This document shows positions 11,297 to 23,294 of a stretch of 64,000 nt of DNA, piece after piece. Made by a program: the position numbers and the translations under genes. The DNA is from a phage. The notes under the pieces are model-generated. The model saw only the letters and a list, made by a program, of their open reading frames with translations, did not search any database and was not told where the DNA came from. Every line of letters begins with the position of its first letter. Within the stretch, counting starts at the first letter, position 1. Location of the stretch: the NCBI GenBank assembly GCA_012813795.1, contig GCA_012813795.1_4087.1; one strand, given 5' to 3'.

Positions 11297-11358
11297 ATCT
11301 TCAGTGAATCATCCGTGTGTTTAAAAAGGTCAATCTTGTTTGCCGTCTTGATGTGGTC

Positions 11359-11386
11359 ATTATATCACATCGTTCAGGCTTGTCAA
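11359..11386 (-). promoter_or_regulatory. Near-consensus sigma70 promoter P1
   Basis: Minus strand reads TTGACA-16 nt-TATAAT with TGn extended -10. Confidence 0.6.
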
Positions 11387-11452
11387 CAACTTTTTTTTCT
11401 TTCTTTTTCAATCTCACATCTTGTGATTTTGAAATCTTGCTTCGTGACGTTC

Positions 11453-11480
11453 ATTATATCACGTTAATCTGTACTGTCAA
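11453..11480 (-). promoter_or_regulatory. Near-consensus sigma70 promoter P2, tandem copy of P1
   Basis: Minus strand reads TTGACA-16 nt-TATAAT with TGn; shares GTGATATAATGA core with P1. Confidence 0.6.
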
Positions 11481-11544
11481 CATCTTTTTCATTTTTATTT
11501 TCGAAGCGTTCTACATATGCATCGAAAATAACTGCTTGAAATCA

Positions 11545-15851: not shown

Positions 15852-17965
<2,114 letters not shown>

Positions 17966-17975
17966 AGTACTCTCC

Positions 17976-18752
17976 TTAAAAACCTATATTACCGAATACA
18001 CGGTCAATGATATCTAGTCCTTGGTTTACTTTTTCTGGTAGTAATGAATTAATGCGAGTACTATACATTTCTTCAATATTATCAAATTGAATACAATTAT
18101 CAGGTTTAATTGTAATATCCATAGTTACTGGTGCACTAGAGCTATATTCCAATGTATCGTAACTAATATTGGTGATGATACACCCTGTAAGAACAAAGTA
18201 TTCCATTACACCAGCACTGTTATAGTTTGAGCCACCAATGAACTGATCTACTGCATTAACCAACCCACCATTATTTGTCACAGCGGTAGCAGCAGAAACA
18301 GCAGTATTTCTTGCTAAATCTTCAATGCTGTCATCAGTATTACGTCCATTTAGCATTTGAATAACCATACCAAATTTATATGAACCATAGTCCTGATCAC
18401 TTCTGGATGTAATTCGTCGTTGAAAATCTAATTGTTTTTGTAACTGTCTTGACAATGCTTTAGCACTTTCATTACCGATTGAATCACGAATTGTTAGTGT
18501 GATGGGTTCCCAGTTATGATTACCAATATATGTAGTATTGGTAGTAAAATGGTTCAACTTATGAGTACTGAATGTTACTGTTGGTCTATCAACTTTATCA
18601 ACATCTAATGCGATGTGATCACGCTCATCAATATCAGTACCGAAATTATAAACAATAACTCTAAATTTATACTTAGCTTTAGGTTGTAGCATTGTTTTAT
18701 TTCTTCCCGATGGTAATGGAACGCCATATTTACTAATCATGTTTTTTGCCAT
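17976..18752 (-). CDS. Tail tube protein paralog B (putative)
   Basis: N-terminus KYGVPLPSGRNKTMLQPKAKYKFRVIVYNFG is clearly paralogous to 18840..19523; sits after the sheath gene. Confidence 0.5.
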   Translation of the reverse strand: MAKNMISKYGVPLPSGRNKTMLQPKAKYKFRVIVYNFGTDIDERDHIALDVDKVDRPTVTFSTHKLNHFTTNTTYIGNHNWEPITLTIRDSIGNESAKALSRQLQKQLDFQRRITSRSDQDYGSYKFGMVIQMLNGRNTDDSIEDLARNTAVSAATAVTNNGGLVNAVDQFIGGSNYNSAGVMEYFVLTGCIITNISYDTLEYSSSAPVTMDITIKPDNCIQFDNIEEMYSTRINSLLPEKVNQGLDIIDRVFGNIGF

Positions 18753-18793
18753 AGCAACCTCTTTTAATTTAAGGTATTATACTTTATTTAGCA

Positions 18794-18822
18794 TAAAAAA
18801 AGCCCCGAAATAGTTTCGAGGC
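18794..18822 (-). terminator. Rho-independent terminator between the two tube paralogs
   Basis: GCCCCGAAA-tag-TTTCGAGGC hairpin (one mismatch) followed on minus strand by TTTTTTT. Confidence 0.55.
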
Positions 18823-18839
18823 TTTAGAAGTATCTTTAA

Positions 18840-19523
18840 TTAATCAAAGAAGTTTGTATCAGGTAGTGTAGTACTACTAATGTTGGTTTGTGCACCACTA
18901 ATAGAAGATGCAGTACTTGGGTTACCGAAACCAGTAACTTCATCACCGAATGCTTCACCGTTTGGACCCAACTTAGCACAACCATCTGGTTGAACACTCA
19001 TTGTAATAACTTGTGCTTCGCTTGAAGAGTAATCCCAATCACCAAAGTTGCTGGATTCAATAAAGCAACCCTGACAAACCCAAGTACTTAGAGTACCTTC
19101 AAAAAGGTTTGTTGCATTTTCGCTGTTAGAACCATCTAGTTCTTGAATCCACATTTCAAATTTAAACTGGGAATCAGTCATACGAGATTCTTGACTATAG
19201 TAGTTGAATTCTTTACGCATTTGGTTGTAAAGTGCTTTTGCTGAAGCATTACCAACTGAATCACGGAAAGCAACTTCAATCGCATCCCAAGTATATTTGC
19301 CTTTATAGTGTGCGGAACTGTTATAACTATGAACAGTTACGTTTTCATGCGATACTGATACTGCACCAACAGTGTTAGTATCTAGTGTAATCATGTTGCC
19401 ATCATCATTGGCACCAAAACCAAAGAAAATTACACGGAATTTATATTTTGCTTTTGGTTGTTTCATTGAAATACGACCACCACCAGCAAGCGGAACGCCA
19501 TATCGATCTAGCATAGTAGCCAT
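18840..19523 (-). CDS. Tail tube protein paralog A (putative)
   Basis: N-terminus RYGVPLAGGGRISMKQPKAKYKFRVIFFGFG; gene order sheath then tube as in T4 genes 18 and 19. Confidence 0.5.
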   Translation of the reverse strand: MATMLDRYGVPLAGGGRISMKQPKAKYKFRVIFFGFGANDDGNMITLDTNTVGAVSVSHENVTVHSYNSSAHYKGKYTWDAIEVAFRDSVGNASAKALYNQMRKEFNYYSQESRMTDSQFKFEMWIQELDGSNSENATNLFEGTLSTWVCQGCFIESSNFGDWDYSSSEAQVITMSVQPDGCAKLGPNGEAFGDEVTGFGNPSTASSISGAQTNISSTTLPDTNFFD

Positions 19524-19680
19524 TTATATTCTCCTGTTATGGAATGACATCTTTATATTATTTATCTATTACTTACACTTTTATTGAAGTATCTCATCAA
19601 CAGGAAACCAATCTATATTCACACAATACAAGTACTTTTTTTCTTGTTTATGATCTGTATAGTTTACACCAACCGACCAT

Positions 19681-19827
19681 TTACCATTTGTGTAAACATT
19701 GTATTCTCGAATTATACCGACAATGTTCCAAATTTTGTATAAAAGCTTTAAGGATTTTTACGGCATCGTCCTGTGTTGTTACAGTTTTACTTACATCTTG
19801 TAATGTTTTTTTAAGTATTTCTTCCAT
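19681..19827 (-). CDS. Small hypothetical protein (48 aa), not in ORF track
   Basis: ATG preceded by AGGAA ribosome-binding site; fills the gap between sheath terminator and tube gene. Confidence 0.4.
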   Translation of the reverse strand: MEEILKKTLQDVSKTVTTQDDAVKILKAFIQNLEHCRYNSRIQCLHKW

Positions 19828-19877
19828 ATTATTCCTGATCGTTGAATTAATAACATAACGTATTTAATTTTAAACAA

Positions 19878-19902
19878 TAAAAAAGGGAACCATATGGTTC
19901 CC
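19878..19902 (-). terminator. Rho-independent terminator just after the sheath gene
   Basis: GGGAACC-atat-GGTTCCC perfect hairpin followed on minus strand by TTTTTTATT. Confidence 0.7.
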
Positions 19903-19910
19903 TTAGTGTG

Positions 19911-22574
19911 TTATTGAGTCTTTTCAATACGAATCGGTACGTAAATGAAGTTGATAGACTTAGTAGGTTGGATTGCGATATCCATCCAAAGTTCGTTACG
20001 GTCAATACGCTCGGAGGTGTTGTTACTTTCATCACAAACAACTGCGAAGTTATATAGACCTTGTTGTTGAACGATTTCAGCTAGGAAGCTATTAACTACA
20101 CCACTGAATTCCTGACGAGTACTTGGAGTATTCAAACGGAATAGGAATGGTTCAGAAATAATTTCTAGTTGACGACGAATATAAACAACTAAACGTGCAA
20201 CGTTAACACGGCTTTCTGCGGAAGTTTGGTTAGGAGATAGTGTTTTATCACCATATACTAGCAAACCACGATTTGGACGCATTGCAATTGGGTTAATGTT
20301 GTTGGTGTACATTACATCACGTTGGCCTTGGTTGTAAACAACTGGTTGATATTCACCTTCATCATTGATGAAGCCTACAGAAGCAGCGTTGGTTACAACA
20401 CCACGAGTAGTACCAGCAGGTGGATACCATACATAACTTACGCTATCGCTGTAAGCATAGGTACGCATTGCAATAGTACTTCCTGGAACTGCAACTTCTT
20501 CACCATCAACGTTAGTACTTAAGCACCAGCCCATATATTGAGCAGCATAATCATATGCAGTTGTGCGACCAACATCACCATTACTTGGTGCGTTATTTGC
20601 GTTAGTTGCCCATTGTTGAACAGCATTACCGTTACCAGTTGGGTTCAAACGTGCTGGAACATCAGTTACGATGAAAGCAGTTTCTTTACGGTCGGTGTTT
20701 AGGGTCACACACTCATCTAAACATTCAACATAACCAGGAACAGAAATTAGGTTAAAGTCAATGAATTCAGAACGGATATCATCGTTTCCAACGATAACTG
20801 CATTTAGTGCTTCTACAACCAATTGGCGTTGTGCAGCACGACCAAACAGGCCATTCCCATCAAGACCAACACCACTGACAACATGCCAAAATCCATCGAT
20901 CATTTTCTTAACCACACCTTCAGTATTTCCAAGGTCGATTGCGAGCATACCGTTTTGGTATAGAGCAGCCGCTGGAACTTGTTCAGGGAAGTTAAAGTCT
21001 TTGAAGATCATACCGTTTAGTGTACTTTGATCAGTACTGTCAAGTTTAACCCACTCACCATTAACATTACGATAGAAATCGTAGCCATCAATACCTTGTG
21101 ATTTAGGAGAAACCCAGATTGTACGGTCCGCAGCAGGTTCGTCAACTTGCACATATTTGTTAGCTTCGTCAACTTCAACCCATTTGTCATTAGCAACATC
21201 AGCTAGATACATGGTAACATTTAGATTATCAGAATTACTGAAATCATACCATAGAGTACCTTCTTTAGCGATACTACGTGGAACGAAACTATTAACACGG
21301 AAATTATTAACGTTAATCAAAGCATAGTTATTACTATCAACAGTTAGTTTTACAAATTCATCTTCATCAAATAGTTCACTACCACTTTGTACAGTTTTGA
21401 AACTATAACCTTTAGAACTATTAATTACTAGGCCACCATTACTTTCTCTTTTAAATTTAAAGCCATCATTGATTAGTTCAGATGAAGCATTTAGATTGTC
21501 AAGAATAGTTTGGGTGTTGATAACACCACCTAGTGCAACTGCTAGTACTTTAACAGTTTTGGTCAAATAAGAGAAAGTCAAGTAAGAATCTTGGTCTGCT
21601 TGAACAACTACAGTTTCACCAACTGGAATCGCTGGAGCACTTAGTGCTGGTAGTTTTGCACTTTGAATATAGAAAGAGAAACTCTTACTATCCCAGTCAA
21701 AACGAGTAGCGATGAAGCTGTTATTTAGAACACCACTTTTGGATTCAATTTCTTGGAAACTGTTACCAGTGAATGCTTGTACTTGATTCCAAACTTGAGT
21801 TAGGGATGCATAACGTTTAATAACAAAACGAGTGCCGAAGTAATTAGCACCATTTTGAGTATAACCATCACGAATCCAGATATTACCTTTCTCAACAGTA
21901 TTACCAACTGGCACTTTGTTGATTGGTGAAAGGTAAGTTTCAACTTGAACTAGACCAGATGCTGCACGTTTGTACATTAGCATTTGACCATTGCTTGGCT
22001 TATAACGTAGTACTAGATCGTCAACGTTAATACCAACTAGGCTAACATCACTAACTTCTTCAGCACTAACAATAGTTACTGGTTTTAGTTGCCAGTCATA
22101 GAAACTGGTTGGTGAATCCACTTTAGAAACATATGCTTCAACTTGTGATTGAGCAACATCTAGCCACAATGTACCGTTTGGTACTGGACCAGTTGGAGCA
22201 GTAGCAGAAGGTGATAGTTGTGCTAAGTCGATATCTGCACGTACAACATAAGCACGATTAGTAATACCAAGGTAAGAATAAGCAGCATGTAGGCCGTATT
22301 CGTTTAGTTCGTCACCTTGAACAACTGAACCATTACTTGATTGAAAAATCGGTGTACCGTAAGTGTCTAGTGAACTTTTCTGAGAAGTTAGAAGTTGCAA
22401 CTTACCAGCATTTGCTTTTGTGGTTCCAGCAGCGATTGTGTTGCTACCAGGTACTAATTTATCTTCTGCGGTAGCAATGATGAATAGTGGTACTGTTCCA
22501 GGTGCGGAAGCAGTGCTCATACTTTCATCAGTAACTGAAATGGAAACGCCAGGCGATAGGAGTTCTCCTGCCAT
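19911..22574 (-). CDS. Tail sheath protein
   Basis: N-terminal LLSPGVSISVTDES and C-terminal YNFAVVCDESNNTSERIDRNELWMDIAIQPTKSINFIYV match T4 gp18 signature regions; GGAGGA ribosome-binding site. Confidence 0.9.
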   Translation of the reverse strand: MAGELLSPGVSISVTDESMSTASAPGTVPLFIIATAEDKLVPGSNTIAAGTTKANAGKLQLLTSQKSSLDTYGTPIFQSSNGSVVQGDELNEYGLHAAYSYLGITNRAYVVRADIDLAQLSPSATAPTGPVPNGTLWLDVAQSQVEAYVSKVDSPTSFYDWQLKPVTIVSAEEVSDVSLVGINVDDLVLRYKPSNGQMLMYKRAASGLVQVETYLSPINKVPVGNTVEKGNIWIRDGYTQNGANYFGTRFVIKRYASLTQVWNQVQAFTGNSFQEIESKSGVLNNSFIATRFDWDSKSFSFYIQSAKLPALSAPAIPVGETVVVQADQDSYLTFSYLTKTVKVLAVALGGVINTQTILDNLNASSELINDGFKFKRESNGGLVINSSKGYSFKTVQSGSELFDEDEFVKLTVDSNNYALINVNNFRVNSFVPRSIAKEGTLWYDFSNSDNLNVTMYLADVANDKWVEVDEANKYVQVDEPAADRTIWVSPKSQGIDGYDFYRNVNGEWVKLDSTDQSTLNGMIFKDFNFPEQVPAAALYQNGMLAIDLGNTEGVVKKMIDGFWHVVSGVGLDGNGLFGRAAQRQLVVEALNAVIVGNDDIRSEFIDFNLISVPGYVECLDECVTLNTDRKETAFIVTDVPARLNPTGNGNAVQQWATNANNAPSNGDVGRTTAYDYAAQYMGWCLSTNVDGEEVAVPGSTIAMRTYAYSDSVSYVWYPPAGTTRGVVTNAASVGFINDEGEYQPVVYNQGQRDVMYTNNINPIAMRPNRGLLVYGDKTLSPNQTSAESRVNVARLVVYIRRQLEIISEPFLFRLNTPSTRQEFSGVVNSFLAEIVQQQGLYNFAVVCDESNNTSERIDRNELWMDIAIQPTKSINFIYVPIRIEKTQ

Positions 22575-22623
22575 ATTAAATCCTCCAAAATAATTGGTTA
22601 TTCGAATATATTTCGTATAGTCT

Positions 22624-22631
22624 TATTTATT
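22624..22631 (-). promoter_or_regulatory. Late-promoter-like motif AATAAATA upstream of the sheath gene
   Basis: Minus strand reads AATAAATA about 50 nt upstream of the sheath ATG. Confidence 0.2.
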
Positions 22632-22667: not shown

Positions 22668-23294
22668 TCAGTTTTTCGTATAAATAATATCCAGTGCTTT
22701 GTTTTCTAGGTCTTTTATAGTTCCATTATTCTTGATAATATAATGTGGGTTGTTAATACCAATCCATGCCCATTCAGATTCATGTACTGATTCCAGTTCA
22801 ACTGGTTTCATTTGGATATCACCTTTATTGTATGATGCTGCTAGACCATACCAGAATGGTAAATTGCGTTGAACTTCAATGATGATACCGTTATTTTCAC
22901 GAATCATTTTCAATTCATTTGGAAAACGACAATCAGTAATGATAATGTTACCTTCTATATCCATCATAGAACGTTCTAAACTGAATACCCAAATGTCATT
23001 ATGCAAATAACGACGAACTACATTAGTACCGTAATTTTGCAGTACCCAACGTGGTGAAACATCATCACGTCCTAATTTATTACACCAGTACTGATCCGGT
23101 TGTTCACGAATAGCACGACCTTCTTTAGTAGTTCCTTCAAGCATTTCTCTGTCCCAGCCAAAAATAGCTGCAACTGAATCTTTCAGGTTCTTTGCAAACG
23201 ACATACGGGTATATCCATTATCGATGAATGTTTTAGCGTATGTATCTTTACCACTTCCTATTGAGCCATTGATGGCTACGATTTTTCTTTCCAT
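22668..23294 (-). CDS. Deoxynucleoside monophosphate kinase (T4 gene 1-like)
   Basis: P-loop GSIGSGKDT and blocks that align with T4 gp1 (AKNLKDSVAAIFGW, SPRWVLQNYGTNVV, IIITDCRF). Confidence 0.85.
   Translation of the reverse strand: MERKIVAINGSIGSGKDTYAKTFIDNGYTRMSFAKNLKDSVAAIFGWDREMLEGTTKEGRAIREQPDQYWCNKLGRDDVSPRWVLQNYGTNVVRRYLHNDIWVFSLERSMMDIEGNIIITDCRFPNELKMIRENNGIIIEVQRNLPFWYGLAASYNKGDIQMKPVELESVHESEWAWIGINNPHYIIKNNGTIKDLENKALDIIYTKN

What the first reader, a model, noticed from the sequence alone, without database searches (positions are those of the whole stretch)
17976..19523. Two paralogous tube-like genes separated by a strong terminator
The proteins share an almost identical N-terminal 30 residues and diverge afterwards. 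A GC-rich hairpin with a T7 tract lies between them, so the downstream paralog would be expressed at lower level. That fits a major tube subunit plus a minor specialised paralog.
Basis: partly seen in the sequence, partly recalled or inferred. Interest (0 to 1): 0.35.

Follow-up and report, generated by a model that had tools for sequence, protein, structure and literature searches.

The report
Three tail-tube paralogs in a jumbo coliphage

Summary
The window is an Asteriusvirus-type jumbo coliphage, 96.5% identical to Escherichia phage A4. On the minus strand the order is sheath, terminator, tube1 (227 aa), terminator, tube2 (258 aa), tube3 (364 aa), gp4-like head-completion gene.

- **Observation.** Tube1 and tube2 are real paralogs: 29% identity, E 2e-37, similar over about 185 residues. 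The N-terminus is the best-conserved part at 24/40 identical, not "almost identical". The hairpin plus T7 tract is real and conserved across five phage lineages.
- **Fold.** AlphaFold2 models of both proteins match T4 gp19, T4 gp3 and Afp/PVC tube proteins, so the refutation test fails.
- **Major versus minor.** Tube1 looks like the major tube. It has sheath-like codon bias (ENC 34.3 against 41.4 for tube2), the highest conservation, the closest match to single-copy tubes of PA5oct and Atu_ph07, and a consensus late-promoter motif.
- **Tube2.** It is a derived copy with an insertion of about 32–40 residues and an unrelated C-terminus. It probably forms a single ring at one end of the tube; which end is unresolved.
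- **Two corrections.** There is a third tube-fold paralog. An invariant GCTAAATA promoter-like motif follows the terminator, so tube2 probably starts its own late operon.

RefSeq already annotates the trio as tail tube proteins. Interest is low.

The parts
19911..22574 (-). Tail sheath gene (887 aa).
   Evidence: Pfam Phage_sheath_1C, E 8.7e-14. phrog_10581 'tail sheath', E 0. ENC 33.4, among the most codon-biased genes in the window.
22624..22630 (-). ATAAATA late-promoter-like motif, 50 nt upstream of the sheath start.
   Evidence: It matches the late motif predicted for CBB and GAP32 structural genes (PMC5259590).
19883..19904 (-). Intrinsic terminator after the sheath gene: 9-bp stem followed by U6.
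   Evidence: -14.3 kcal/mol. A hairpin plus U-tract follows the sheath stop in all 15 phages compared. It is annotated as a terminator in Salmonella phage Munch.
19681..19827 (-). Small 48-aa ORF inside the 387-nt sheath-tube1 spacer. It is lineage-specific and of unknown function.
   Evidence: Annotated as A4_548 and EcMJ_283. RaK2, GAP32, CBB and Munch have spacers of only 105-121 nt.
19559..19566 (-). GATAAATA late-promoter-like motif, 35 nt upstream of the tube1 start.
   Evidence: (T/G)ATAAATA lies roughly 30-40 nt upstream of the tube1 start in 15 of 15 phages, including PA5oct, Atu_ph07 and Vibrio phage 2.275.O.
18840..19523 (-). tube1 (227 aa): inferred major tail tube protein.
   Evidence: phrog_4542 'tail tube protein', E 1.7e-83. 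AF2 pLDDT 75.5, with Foldseek hits to T4 gp3, T4 gp19 and the KP1 tube at E 2e-9 to 3e-8. ENC 34.3. Most conserved of the trio. Closest to the single-copy tubes of PA5oct and Atu_ph07. Its orthologue CBB_205 was detected by virion MS (PMC5259590).
18795..18825 (-). Intrinsic terminator after tube1: 12-bp hairpin within a U7 run.
   Evidence: -14.9 kcal/mol. A hairpin plus T-tract in this spacer in 13 of the 14 other phages compared (Atu_ph07 has none; A4's is identical to the window's), with differing stems. In the 11-phage alignment, 3 of 7 aligned pairs show compensatory changes. Annotated as a terminator in phage Munch.
18785..18792 (-). GCTAAATA late-promoter-like motif, 33 nt upstream of the tube2 start. 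A TATAATA follows at 18775-18781.
   Evidence: It is invariant in 11 of 11 enterobacterial RaK2-like phages, although the neighbouring proteins have fallen to 59-76% identity. TAAATA occurs at -60..-20 of 11 of 86 minus-strand genes, against 4.8 +/- 2.1 in shuffles.
17976..18752 (-). tube2 (258 aa): derived tube-fold paralog, inferred minor ring-forming component.
   Evidence: phrog_4542, E 3.2e-78. AF2 pLDDT 67.7, with Foldseek hits to the A-1(L) tube, Pvc1 and Afp tubes at E 9e-9 to 2e-8. It has a low-confidence helical insertion at about residues 138-179 and an unrelated C-terminus. ENC 41.4. Least conserved of the trio.
16871..17965 (-). tube3 (364 aa): third tube-fold paralog. It consists of an N-terminal extension, a tube domain (residues ~48-255) and a Gly/Ala-rich C-terminal region of ~110 aa.
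   Evidence: phrog_13438 'tail tube protein', E 1e-221, and phrog_4542, E 4e-7. hhalign against the tube1/2 family gives probability 97.4%, E 1.6e-11. Counterparts lie between the tube gene and the gp4-like gene in PA5oct and Atu_ph07. Its orthologue CBB_207 was detected by virion MS.
16416..16871 (-). T4 gp4-like head-completion gene. Its start overlaps the tube3 stop.
   Evidence: phrog_218 'head closure', E 9e-40. Pfam Tn7_TnsA-like_N, E 7e-17. Annotated as T4 gp4-like in 121Q.

Best explanation
The locus is the tail-tube module of a RaK2/121Q-type jumbo myophage. Transcription runs on the minus strand.

**Gene roles**
- The sheath gene and tube1 are each one-gene late units. Each has a T4-like late-promoter motif (A/G)ATAAATA upstream and an intrinsic terminator downstream. 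This arrangement suits the two proteins needed in hundreds of copies.
- Tube1 is the major tube protein. It would polymerise as stacked hexameric rings.
- Tube2 arose by duplication of the tube gene within the RaK2-like lineage. It kept the N-terminal arm and the beta-sandwich core. It gained an insertion of about 32-40 residues and a new C-terminal tail.
- Tube2 most likely forms a single specialised ring that stacks on tube1 at one end of the tube.
- My preferred placement is the baseplate-proximal tube-initiator ring, analogous to T4 gp54, phiKZ gp88 and Afp5/Pvc5.
- Tube3 would then be a second junction ring, either gp48/spacer-like or a gp3-like terminator.

**Regulation**
- The terminator after tube1 stops the heavy tube1 transcription.
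- A conserved variant motif, GCTAAATA, restarts transcription for the operon tube2-tube3-gp4-like and onward.

**Shown versus inferred**
- Shown here: homology, the tube fold, the conserved terminator and motifs, the codon-bias asymmetry, and the direction of divergence.
- Inferred: stoichiometry, ring position and promoter activity.
For: - **Identity of the locus.** It is 96.5% identical in nucleotides to phage A4, and 36 phage records cover at least 80% of the query. Many of the records listed already label the trio as 'tail tube protein (x3)', including RefSeq 121Q, GAP32 and PBECO4.
- **Fold.** Both AF2 models match solved tube proteins with Foldseek probability 1.00. T4 gp19 itself matches phrog_4542 at E 5e-10.
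- **Tube1 as the major subunit.**
  - ENC is 34.3, close to the sheath at 33.4, against 41.4 for tube2 and 42.3 for tube3.
  - Identity to relatives is 71-95% for tube1 and 59-86% for tube2.
  - Single-copy tubes of PA5oct and Atu_ph07 score 122-142 bits against tube1 and 76-94 bits against tube2.
  - The late motif is present upstream of tube1 in 15 of 15 phages.
  - The tube1 family has its own conserved C-terminal tail ending in D-x-N-F.
- **Tube2 as derived.** PA5oct and Atu_ph07 have only a tube and a tube3-like gene before the gp4-like gene.
- **No other candidates found.** No further tube-like ORF was detectable by HMM in the window plus about 125 kb of the 121Q structural region, which includes the baseplate hub module.
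- **Terminator and promoter-like motif are conserved**.
- **Literature context.** CBB and GAP32 have a predicted ATAAATA late motif and a gp55-like sigma factor (PMC5259590). 121Q annotates a late sigma factor.
- **Precedent.** phiKZ has a tube-like initiator ring and a spacer ring at the baseplate junction (PMC13250141).
Against: - No direct stoichiometry or transcript data exist for this phage or its relatives.
- The CBB virion MS table lists the tube1 and tube3 orthologues but not tube2. It also omits the sheath protein, so absence from that table is weak evidence.
- Tube2 shows no specific similarity to gp54, gp48 or gp3. There are no Pfam hits, no sequence-level PDB hits, and the Foldseek ranks of gp54 and gp3 homologues do not discriminate.
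- The tube2 model is weak in the insertion and the C-terminus (pLDDT below 50).
- Position argues for a gp3-like role for one of the paralogs. T4 has the order 1-3-2-4, and here it is 1-sheath-tube1-tube2-tube3-4.
- GCTAAATA as an exact 8-mer is not enriched in the window: 3 found against 2.9 expected. Only the TAAATA core at a fixed distance from gene starts is enriched.
Confidence: 0.65

Rival explanations
1. Tube2 is the capsid-proximal ring, that is a tube terminator or sub-terminal ring analogous to T4 gp3. Tube3 alone would then serve as the baseplate-side initiator.
For: - T4 gp3 has the tube fold and is the top Foldseek hit for tube1 (9mkb_AC).
- The trio occupies the position that gene 3 holds in T4, between gene 1 (dNMP kinase) and gene 4 (head completion).
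- The genome has a gp15-like sheath terminator that would need a partner ring (121Q_579).
Against: - Tube2 has no PF06841 or phrog_45 match, whereas T4 gp3 has both.
- gp3 ranks only 27th among tube2's Foldseek hits.
- PA5oct and Atu_ph07 lack tube2 yet must also terminate their tubes. Tube3-like, or an undetected protein, fits that universal role better.
Confidence: 0.22
2. Tube1 and tube2 co-polymerise, or they build two different segments of the tube. Both would then be abundant structural subunits.
For: - Both keep the N-terminal arm, the core strands and the SAKAL helix.
- Other T4-like phages annotate two gp19 proteins, for example 'Gp19 tail tube protein II' of Campylobacter phage NCTC12673.
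Against: - Codon bias differs strongly: 34.3 against 41.4.
- Tube2 evolves faster.
- Its insertion of about 32-40 residues and its unrelated C-terminus would disturb a uniform helical lattice under the sheath.
- Relatives with the same sheath family manage with a single tube of this family.
Confidence: 0.07
3. Tube2 is a non-structural or dispensable duplicate, for example an assembly chaperone, a decoy or a decaying copy.
For: It is not listed in the CBB virion MS table.
Against: - It is full-length in every RaK2-like phage examined, at 257-258 aa.
- About 39 columns are invariant across 39 diverse homologues.
- It has its own conserved promoter-like motif and ribosome-binding site.
- 121Q, A4 and CBB records label it a structural protein.
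Confidence: 0.05

Closest known systems
Orthologous trios in RaK2-like jumbo phages: 121Q gp552-554, GAP32_199-201, CBB_205-207, RaK2 ORF042-044, PBECO4
   Same: - Same gene order: sheath, tube1, tube2, tube3, gp4-like.
- Same protein lengths: 227-229, 257-258 and 363-364 aa.
- Identities to the window proteins are tube1 71-95%, tube2 59-86% and tube3 67-89%.
- The terminator and the GCTAAATA motif sit in the same place.
   Different: - Nothing essential differs.
- The window phage, like other Asteriusvirus genomes, has a longer sheath-tube1 spacer containing a small ORF.
- The 2013 RaK2 paper did not recognise these genes as tube proteins and proposed gp106w/gp107w instead (PMC3622015).
Phage T4 tube-fold set: gp19 (tube), gp54 and gp48 (baseplate-tube junction rings), gp3 (tube terminator)
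   Same: - One major tube protein plus minor tube-fold ring proteins.
- T4 gp19 matches the same PHROG as tube1 and tube2.
- Structural similarity by Foldseek.
- Late promoter TATAAATA.
- Conserved placement between gene 1 and gene 4.
   Different: - T4 encodes gp48 and gp54 in the hub module and gp3 elsewhere. Here all three paralogs sit in a row after the sheath gene.
- No match to Pfam PF06841 or PF11091.
- Tube2 is a recent, lineage-specific duplicate of the tube gene, not an orthologue of gp54, gp48 or gp3.
phiKZ gp30 (tube), gp88 (tube initiator) and gp182 (spacer ring)
   Same: A jumbo myophage in which a tube-like initiator ring and a second ring connect the tube to the hub (PMC13250141).
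   Different: - A different tube family. The phiKZ and phiKp24 tubes of about 290 aa align poorly with tube1 (TM 0.35).
- The genes are not adjacent in phiKZ.
Afp1/Afp5 and Pvc1/Pvc5 of extracellular contractile injection systems
   Same: Paralogous tube proteins are encoded in one operon near the sheath genes. One is the bulk tube and the other a baseplate-proximal layer. These are among the best Foldseek hits for both models (6rao, 9qgl, 6j0n).
   Different: - Those proteins are much smaller (about 148 aa) and come from non-phage systems.
- There is no terminator and promoter between the paralogs as far as I know (my own knowledge, not tested here).

Membership tests
Contractile-tail tube protein fold (T4 gp19 / Hcp / Afp1 superfamily) | Tube-type beta-sandwich fold with an outer helix, shown by structural comparison. 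| tested here: met
   Tube1 and tube2 AF2 models against the PDB give probability 1.00 and E down to 2e-9 and 9e-9. TM normalised to the target is 0.67-0.77. Tube3 was tested only by profile: hhalign 97.4% to the tube1/2 family.
Contractile-tail tube protein fold (T4 gp19 / Hcp / Afp1 superfamily) | Sequence-profile membership in a curated tube family. | tested here: inconclusive
   PHROG 4542 'tail tube protein' matches at E 1.7e-83 and 3.2e-78, and T4 gp19 also matches that PHROG at 5e-10. Pfam PF06841 gives no hit at E<0.1 for any of the three.
Contractile-tail tube protein fold (T4 gp19 / Hcp / Afp1 superfamily) | Gene lies immediately downstream of the sheath gene. | tested here: met
   The order sheath, tube1, tube2, tube3 holds in the window and in all RaK2-like relatives.
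Contractile-tail tube protein fold (T4 gp19 / Hcp / Afp1 superfamily) | Present in virions and assembles as stacked hexamers. | not testable with these tools
   Literature only. CBB_205 and CBB_207 were detected by MS (PMC5259590). The PA5oct tube and tube3-like proteins are flagged ESI-MS/MS.
Tube initiator / baseplate-tube junction ring (T4 gp54, gp48; phiKZ gp88) | Specific homology to gp54 or gp48 (phrog_45, phrog_230, Pfam PF11091). | tested here: not met
   Tube2 has no hit to any of these. Tube3 has only a weak phrog_45 hit at E 0.002 and none to phrog_230 or PF11091. None of 55 distant tube3 relatives carries PF11091.
Tube initiator / baseplate-tube junction ring (T4 gp54, gp48; phiKZ gp88) | Encoded in the baseplate hub module. 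| tested here: not met
   The 121Q hub and wedge genes (583-597) lie about 45-60 kb away. No tube-like ORF was found there by HMM.
Tube initiator / baseplate-tube junction ring (T4 gp54, gp48; phiKZ gp88) | Located between the hub and the first tube ring, at 6 copies per virion. | not testable with these tools
   This needs cryo-EM or quantitative MS.
Tube terminator (T4 gp3) | Pfam PF06841 or phrog_45 membership, as for gp3. | tested here: not met
   T4 gp3 matches PF06841 at 1.5e-12 and phrog_45 at 6e-44. Tube2 matches neither, and tube3 matches phrog_45 only at E 0.002.
Tube terminator (T4 gp3) | Gene position between gene 1 (dNMP kinase) and gene 4 (head completion). | tested here: met
   T4 has the order 1-3-2-4. 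The window has dNMP kinase (22668-23294), sheath, tube1-3, then the gp4-like gene. This is a positional argument only.
Intrinsic (Rho-independent) terminator | G+C-containing hairpin followed directly by a U-tract on the coding strand, at a gene end. | tested here: met
   A 12-bp stem within a U7 run lies 14 nt after the tube1 stop, at -14.9 kcal/mol. A hairpin plus T-tract sits in this spacer in 13 of the 14 other phages compared, with compensatory changes in the aligned stems.
Intrinsic (Rho-independent) terminator | Transcripts end there in vivo. | not testable with these tools
   No RNA data were available. The PA5oct supplementary tables are not held in the library.
T4-type late promoter (TATAAATA, gp55-dependent) | TATAAATA-like element about 30-40 nt upstream of late-gene starts. 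| tested here: inconclusive
   Tube1 has GATAAATA (7 of 8) and tube2 has GCTAAATA (6 of 8). Both are conserved across genera. TAAATA upstream of genes is enriched with z of about 2.9. Activity is untested.
T4-type late promoter (TATAAATA, gp55-dependent) | The phage encodes a gp55-like late sigma factor. | not tested
   It is annotated in 121Q (gene 591) and in CBB (CBB_244; PMC5259590). I did not look for it in this window.

The most novel reading that the evidence does not exclude
RaK2-like jumbo phages may have built their tube-end rings independently of T4. On this reading they duplicated the tube gene in place (tube2) and recruited a widespread 'tube domain plus variable C-terminal extension' protein (tube3). 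Tube2, with its helical insertion and new C-terminus, would then form a previously undescribed adaptor layer or a distinct tube segment, not a gp54 or gp3 orthologue.
Probability: 0.15. Interest if true: 0.4.

Novelty: already known. Interest (0 to 1): 0.15.

Why it matters
It matters little beyond annotation. The trio is already labelled 'tail tube protein' in RefSeq records of 121Q, GAP32 and PBECO4.

What this analysis adds:
- a reasoned assignment of which copy is the major tube, which the 2013 RaK2 paper could not identify;
- evidence that tube2 is a lineage-specific duplicate;
- a conserved unit of terminator plus late-promoter-like motif that can serve as a landmark when annotating late transcription units in these poorly characterised 350-kb phages.

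The exact ring positions of tube2 and tube3 remain open. They would come out of any cryo-EM study of an Asteriusvirus tail.

Tried and rejected
- **PDB sequence searches.** Single-sequence and profile searches with tube1, tube2, tube3 and their alignments gave only chance hits.
- **hhalign against single T4 proteins.** Family alignments compared with T4 gp19, gp54 and gp48 gave probabilities below 1%, so single-sequence templates were too weak.
- **phiKp24 cryo-EM tube (8bfk).** It turned out to be a phiKZ-type tube of about 290 aa with a poor match (TM 0.35). That paper therefore does not tell us which paralog is the tube here.
- **RaK2 and PA5oct papers.** Neither mentions the orthologues or their abundance, and the PA5oct supplements are not held.
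- **GCTAAATA as a general motif.** It is not enriched as an 8-mer. Only the TAAATA core at a fixed distance from starts is enriched.
- **Sigma-70 promoter between the paralogs.** There is no acceptable -35 element. The promoter scan found fewer sites than shuffles in this region.
- **Recent gene conversion as the cause of N-terminal similarity.** Rejected, because the identical 11-residue run is encoded with six synonymous differences.
- **Profile search with tube3 against 1.84 billion representatives, followed by Pfam and PHROG scans of 55 hits.** This found a large family but no link to gp48 (PF11091) or to gp3/gp19 (PF06841). It did not settle tube3's role.
- **Rfam and tRNA scans of the whole window.** Nothing was found.
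Full report
**What the window is.** The region 16800-22600 is 96.5% identical in nucleotides to Escherichia phage A4 (Asteriusvirus) and 82-85% identical to 121Q, PBECO4 and about 35 other jumbo coliphages. Nearly all genes are on the minus strand: 86 of 90 in a crude gene call. Read in the direction of transcription, the local order is:
- dNMP kinase (22668-23294);
- tail sheath (19911-22574, 887 aa);
- a 387-nt spacer containing a small ORF;
- tube1 (18840-19523, 227 aa);
- an 87-nt spacer;
- tube2 (17976-18752, 258 aa);
- tube3 (16871-17965, 364 aa);
- a T4 gp4-like head-completion gene (16416-16871).

**Checking the observation.**
They are paralogs: BLASTP 29% identity over about 230 aligned columns, E 2e-37.
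- The N-terminus is the best-conserved part, with 24 of the first 40 residues identical and an 11-residue identical run, QPKAKYKFRVI. It is not 'almost identical'.
- Similarity continues through a second block, RDSxGNxSAKAL, to about residue 185. Only the last ~45 residues are unrelated, and tube2 has an insertion of about 32-40 residues.
- The identical run is encoded with six synonymous differences. It therefore reflects purifying selection on an old duplication, not gene conversion.
- The spacer folds into a 12-bp hairpin within a run of seven U. The hairpin energy is -14.9 kcal/mol, and the spacer z-score is -4.06.
hhalign against the tube1/2 family gives probability 97.4%, E 1.6e-11, and the match includes the PKxKxxF and F(R/Y)D(S/T)V motifs.

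**Fold.**
- Pfam gives nothing for any of the three proteins. PHROG 4542 'tail tube protein' matches tube1 at 1.7e-83 and tube2 at 3.2e-78. T4 gp19 also matches that PHROG, at 5e-10.
- I built AlphaFold2 models from 72-sequence alignments. Tube1 has pLDDT 75.5. Tube2 has pLDDT 67.7, with the insertion and the C-terminus below 50.
- Both models were searched against the PDB with Foldseek, and both hit only contractile-tail and related tube proteins at probability 1.00.
- Tube1's best hits are T4 gp3 (9mkb_AC, identity confirmed), the KP1 tube, T4 gp19 (5w5f) and Afp/PVC tubes, at E 2e-9 to 1e-7.
- Tube2's best hits are the A-1(L) tube, Pvc1 and Afp tubes, at E 9e-9 to 1e-7.
- The phiKp24 cryo-EM tube (8bfk) is a phiKZ-type protein of about 290 aa and is not an orthologue.

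**Which copy is the major tube?** Four independent indirect lines point to tube1.
- Codon bias. The sheath (ENC 33.4) and tube1 (34.3) are among the most biased genes of at least 150 aa in the window. The window mean is 41.1 +/- 4.7, while tube2 (41.4) and tube3 (42.3) are average.
- Conservation. Across ten relatives from several genera, tube1 is the most conserved of the module (71-95% identity). Tube2 is the least conserved of the three tube paralogs (59-86%).
- Ancestry. PA5oct and Atu_ph07 have a single tube of this family followed by a tube3-like protein and then the gp4-like gene. Their tubes score 122-142 bits against tube1 and only 76-94 bits against tube2. Tube2 is therefore the derived copy, and it arose within the RaK2-like lineage. 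Vibrio phage 2.275.O already has a tube2-like gene.
- Regulatory context, described in the next section.

HMM searches of the window plus about 125 kb of the 121Q structural region found no further tube-like ORF. That region includes the baseplate hub and wedge module.

**Regulatory anatomy.**
- A hairpin plus U-tract follows the tube1 stop in 13 of the 14 other phages compared, everywhere except Atu_ph07. That covers A4, 121Q, vB_Ec-M-J, RaK2, Hallingskeid, Munch, CBB, GAP32, pEa_SNUABM_12, XbC2, fHe-Yen9-04, Vibrio phage 2.275.O and PA5oct. The stems differ in sequence.
- In the 11-phage alignment, 3 of 7 aligned pairs show compensatory changes.
- The Munch record annotates both this terminator and the one after the sheath gene.
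- Directly after the U-tract, the octamer GCTAAATA is invariant in 11 of 11 enterobacterial relatives. The flanking proteins in those phages have diverged to 59-76% identity.
- This octamer lies 33 nt upstream of the tube2 start.
- Upstream of tube1, (T/G)ATAAATA lies roughly 30-40 nt from the start in 15 of 15 phages. In the Mimasvirus and Eneladusvirus genomes it is the perfect T4 late consensus, TATAAATA. The sheath gene has ATAAATA 50 nt upstream.
- In the window, TAAATA occurs at -60..-20 of 11 of 86 minus-strand genes. Composition-matched shuffles give 4.8 +/- 2.1, and the genome-wide background predicts 1.3.
- The CBB paper predicted an ATAAATA late motif before structural genes of CBB and GAP32, and it reported a gp55-like sigma factor (PMC5259590). 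121Q annotates a late sigma factor.
- My reading is as follows. The sheath gene and tube1 are insulated one-gene late units. The terminator after tube1 stops that heavy transcription. Tube2-tube3-gp4-like and the genes beyond are restarted from their own promoter, a conserved non-consensus variant (6 of 8 matches).
- Promoter activity and relative transcript levels are inferred, not shown.

**What tube2 and tube3 do.** By analogy with solved tails, minor tube-fold proteins form single rings at the ends of the tube.
- In T4, gp48 and gp54 sit at the baseplate and gp3 at the top (established knowledge; chain identities checked).
- In phiKZ, gp88 is the initiator ring and gp182 a spacer ring (PMC13250141).
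- Afp5 and Pvc5 play the corresponding role in extracellular injection systems.

Tube2 keeps the N-terminal arm, the core strands and the SAKAL helix of tube1. It replaces the C-terminal tail, which in the tube1 family is itself conserved and ends in D-x-N-F. That fits a ring able to stack on tube1 on one face only. I favour the baseplate-proximal initiator position for tube2, with tube3 as a second junction ring or a terminator.

The data do not discriminate between the two ends of the tube.
- Neither protein matches PF06841, PF11091 or phrog_230.
- Foldseek ranks of gp54 and gp3 homologues are uninformative.
- Gene position, between the gene 1 and gene 4 homologues, recalls T4 gene 3.

A profile search with tube3 found 1492 representative proteins at E <= 1e-3. 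They share the tube domain and carry variable C-terminal extensions, with total lengths of mostly about 300-1300 aa. Two of 55 sampled have F5/8 type C domains, and none is linked to gp48 or gp3 families.

In the CBB virion MS table the tube1 and tube3 orthologues are listed and tube2 is not. The sheath protein is also missing from that table, so this is weak evidence.

**Novelty.**
- The trio is annotated 'tail tube protein' three times over in RefSeq 121Q, GAP32 and PBECO4 and in several recent submissions. Older records call them 'structural protein'.
- The 2013 RaK2 paper failed to identify the tube and guessed gp106w/gp107w, so assigning tube1 as the major tube is a modest clarification.
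- The finding is correct and ordinary: a known gene family in a near-duplicate of a sequenced phage.
- The only open question, which end of the tube tube2 and tube3 occupy, needs cryo-EM or quantitative proteomics.

Noticed in passing
Its tube-domain family is large: 1492 representative clusters with variable C-terminal extensions, a few carrying F5/8 type C domains.
   Followed up: yes
window 19524-19910 (-): The sheath-tube1 junction looks like an insertion hot spot. The spacer is 387 nt with a 48-aa ORF (19681-19827) in this phage, 395 nt in 121Q, and 105-121 nt in RaK2, GAP32, CBB and Munch. The same junction carries an unrelated 405-nt ORF in Yersinia phage fHe-Yen9-04, a Hef-like homing endonuclease in PA5oct, and several genes in Atu_ph07.
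   Followed up: partly
window 11357-11501 (-): Two perfect sigma-70 consensus promoters (TTGACA, 16 nt, TG-extended TATAAT) lie 94 nt apart inside a tandem repeat, each with an A-rich UP-like stretch upstream. They resemble the 'RpoD-like promoters with UP element' described for phage CBB. They lie in the gap before the ATPase gene.
   Followed up: partly
window 16416-16871 (-): The T4 gp4-like head-completion protein carries a TnsA-like endonuclease N-terminal domain (Pfam PF08722, E 7e-17). Its start codon overlaps the tube3 stop codon.
   Followed up: no
window ~50720-50790 (-): A second example of a terminator hairpin plus U-tract followed immediately by TATAAATA, about 32 nt upstream of the gene starting at 50716. 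It is the same punctuation as between tube1 and tube2.
   Followed up: no
window 17976-18752 (-); protein P0032: Tube2 is 100% identical to an NCBI protein filed as 'hypothetical protein ABV23_RS01985 [Escherichia coli]', on a 357,761-bp contig. A complete jumbo-phage genome appears to be deposited as part of an E. coli assembly.
   Followed up: no
window 22668-23294 to 16416 (-): Placement of the dNMP kinase (gene 1 homologue) and the head-completion gene (gene 4 homologue) is conserved with T4. In T4 the tube terminator gene 3 and gene 2 lie between them. Here the sheath gene and three tube paralogs do.
   Followed up: partly
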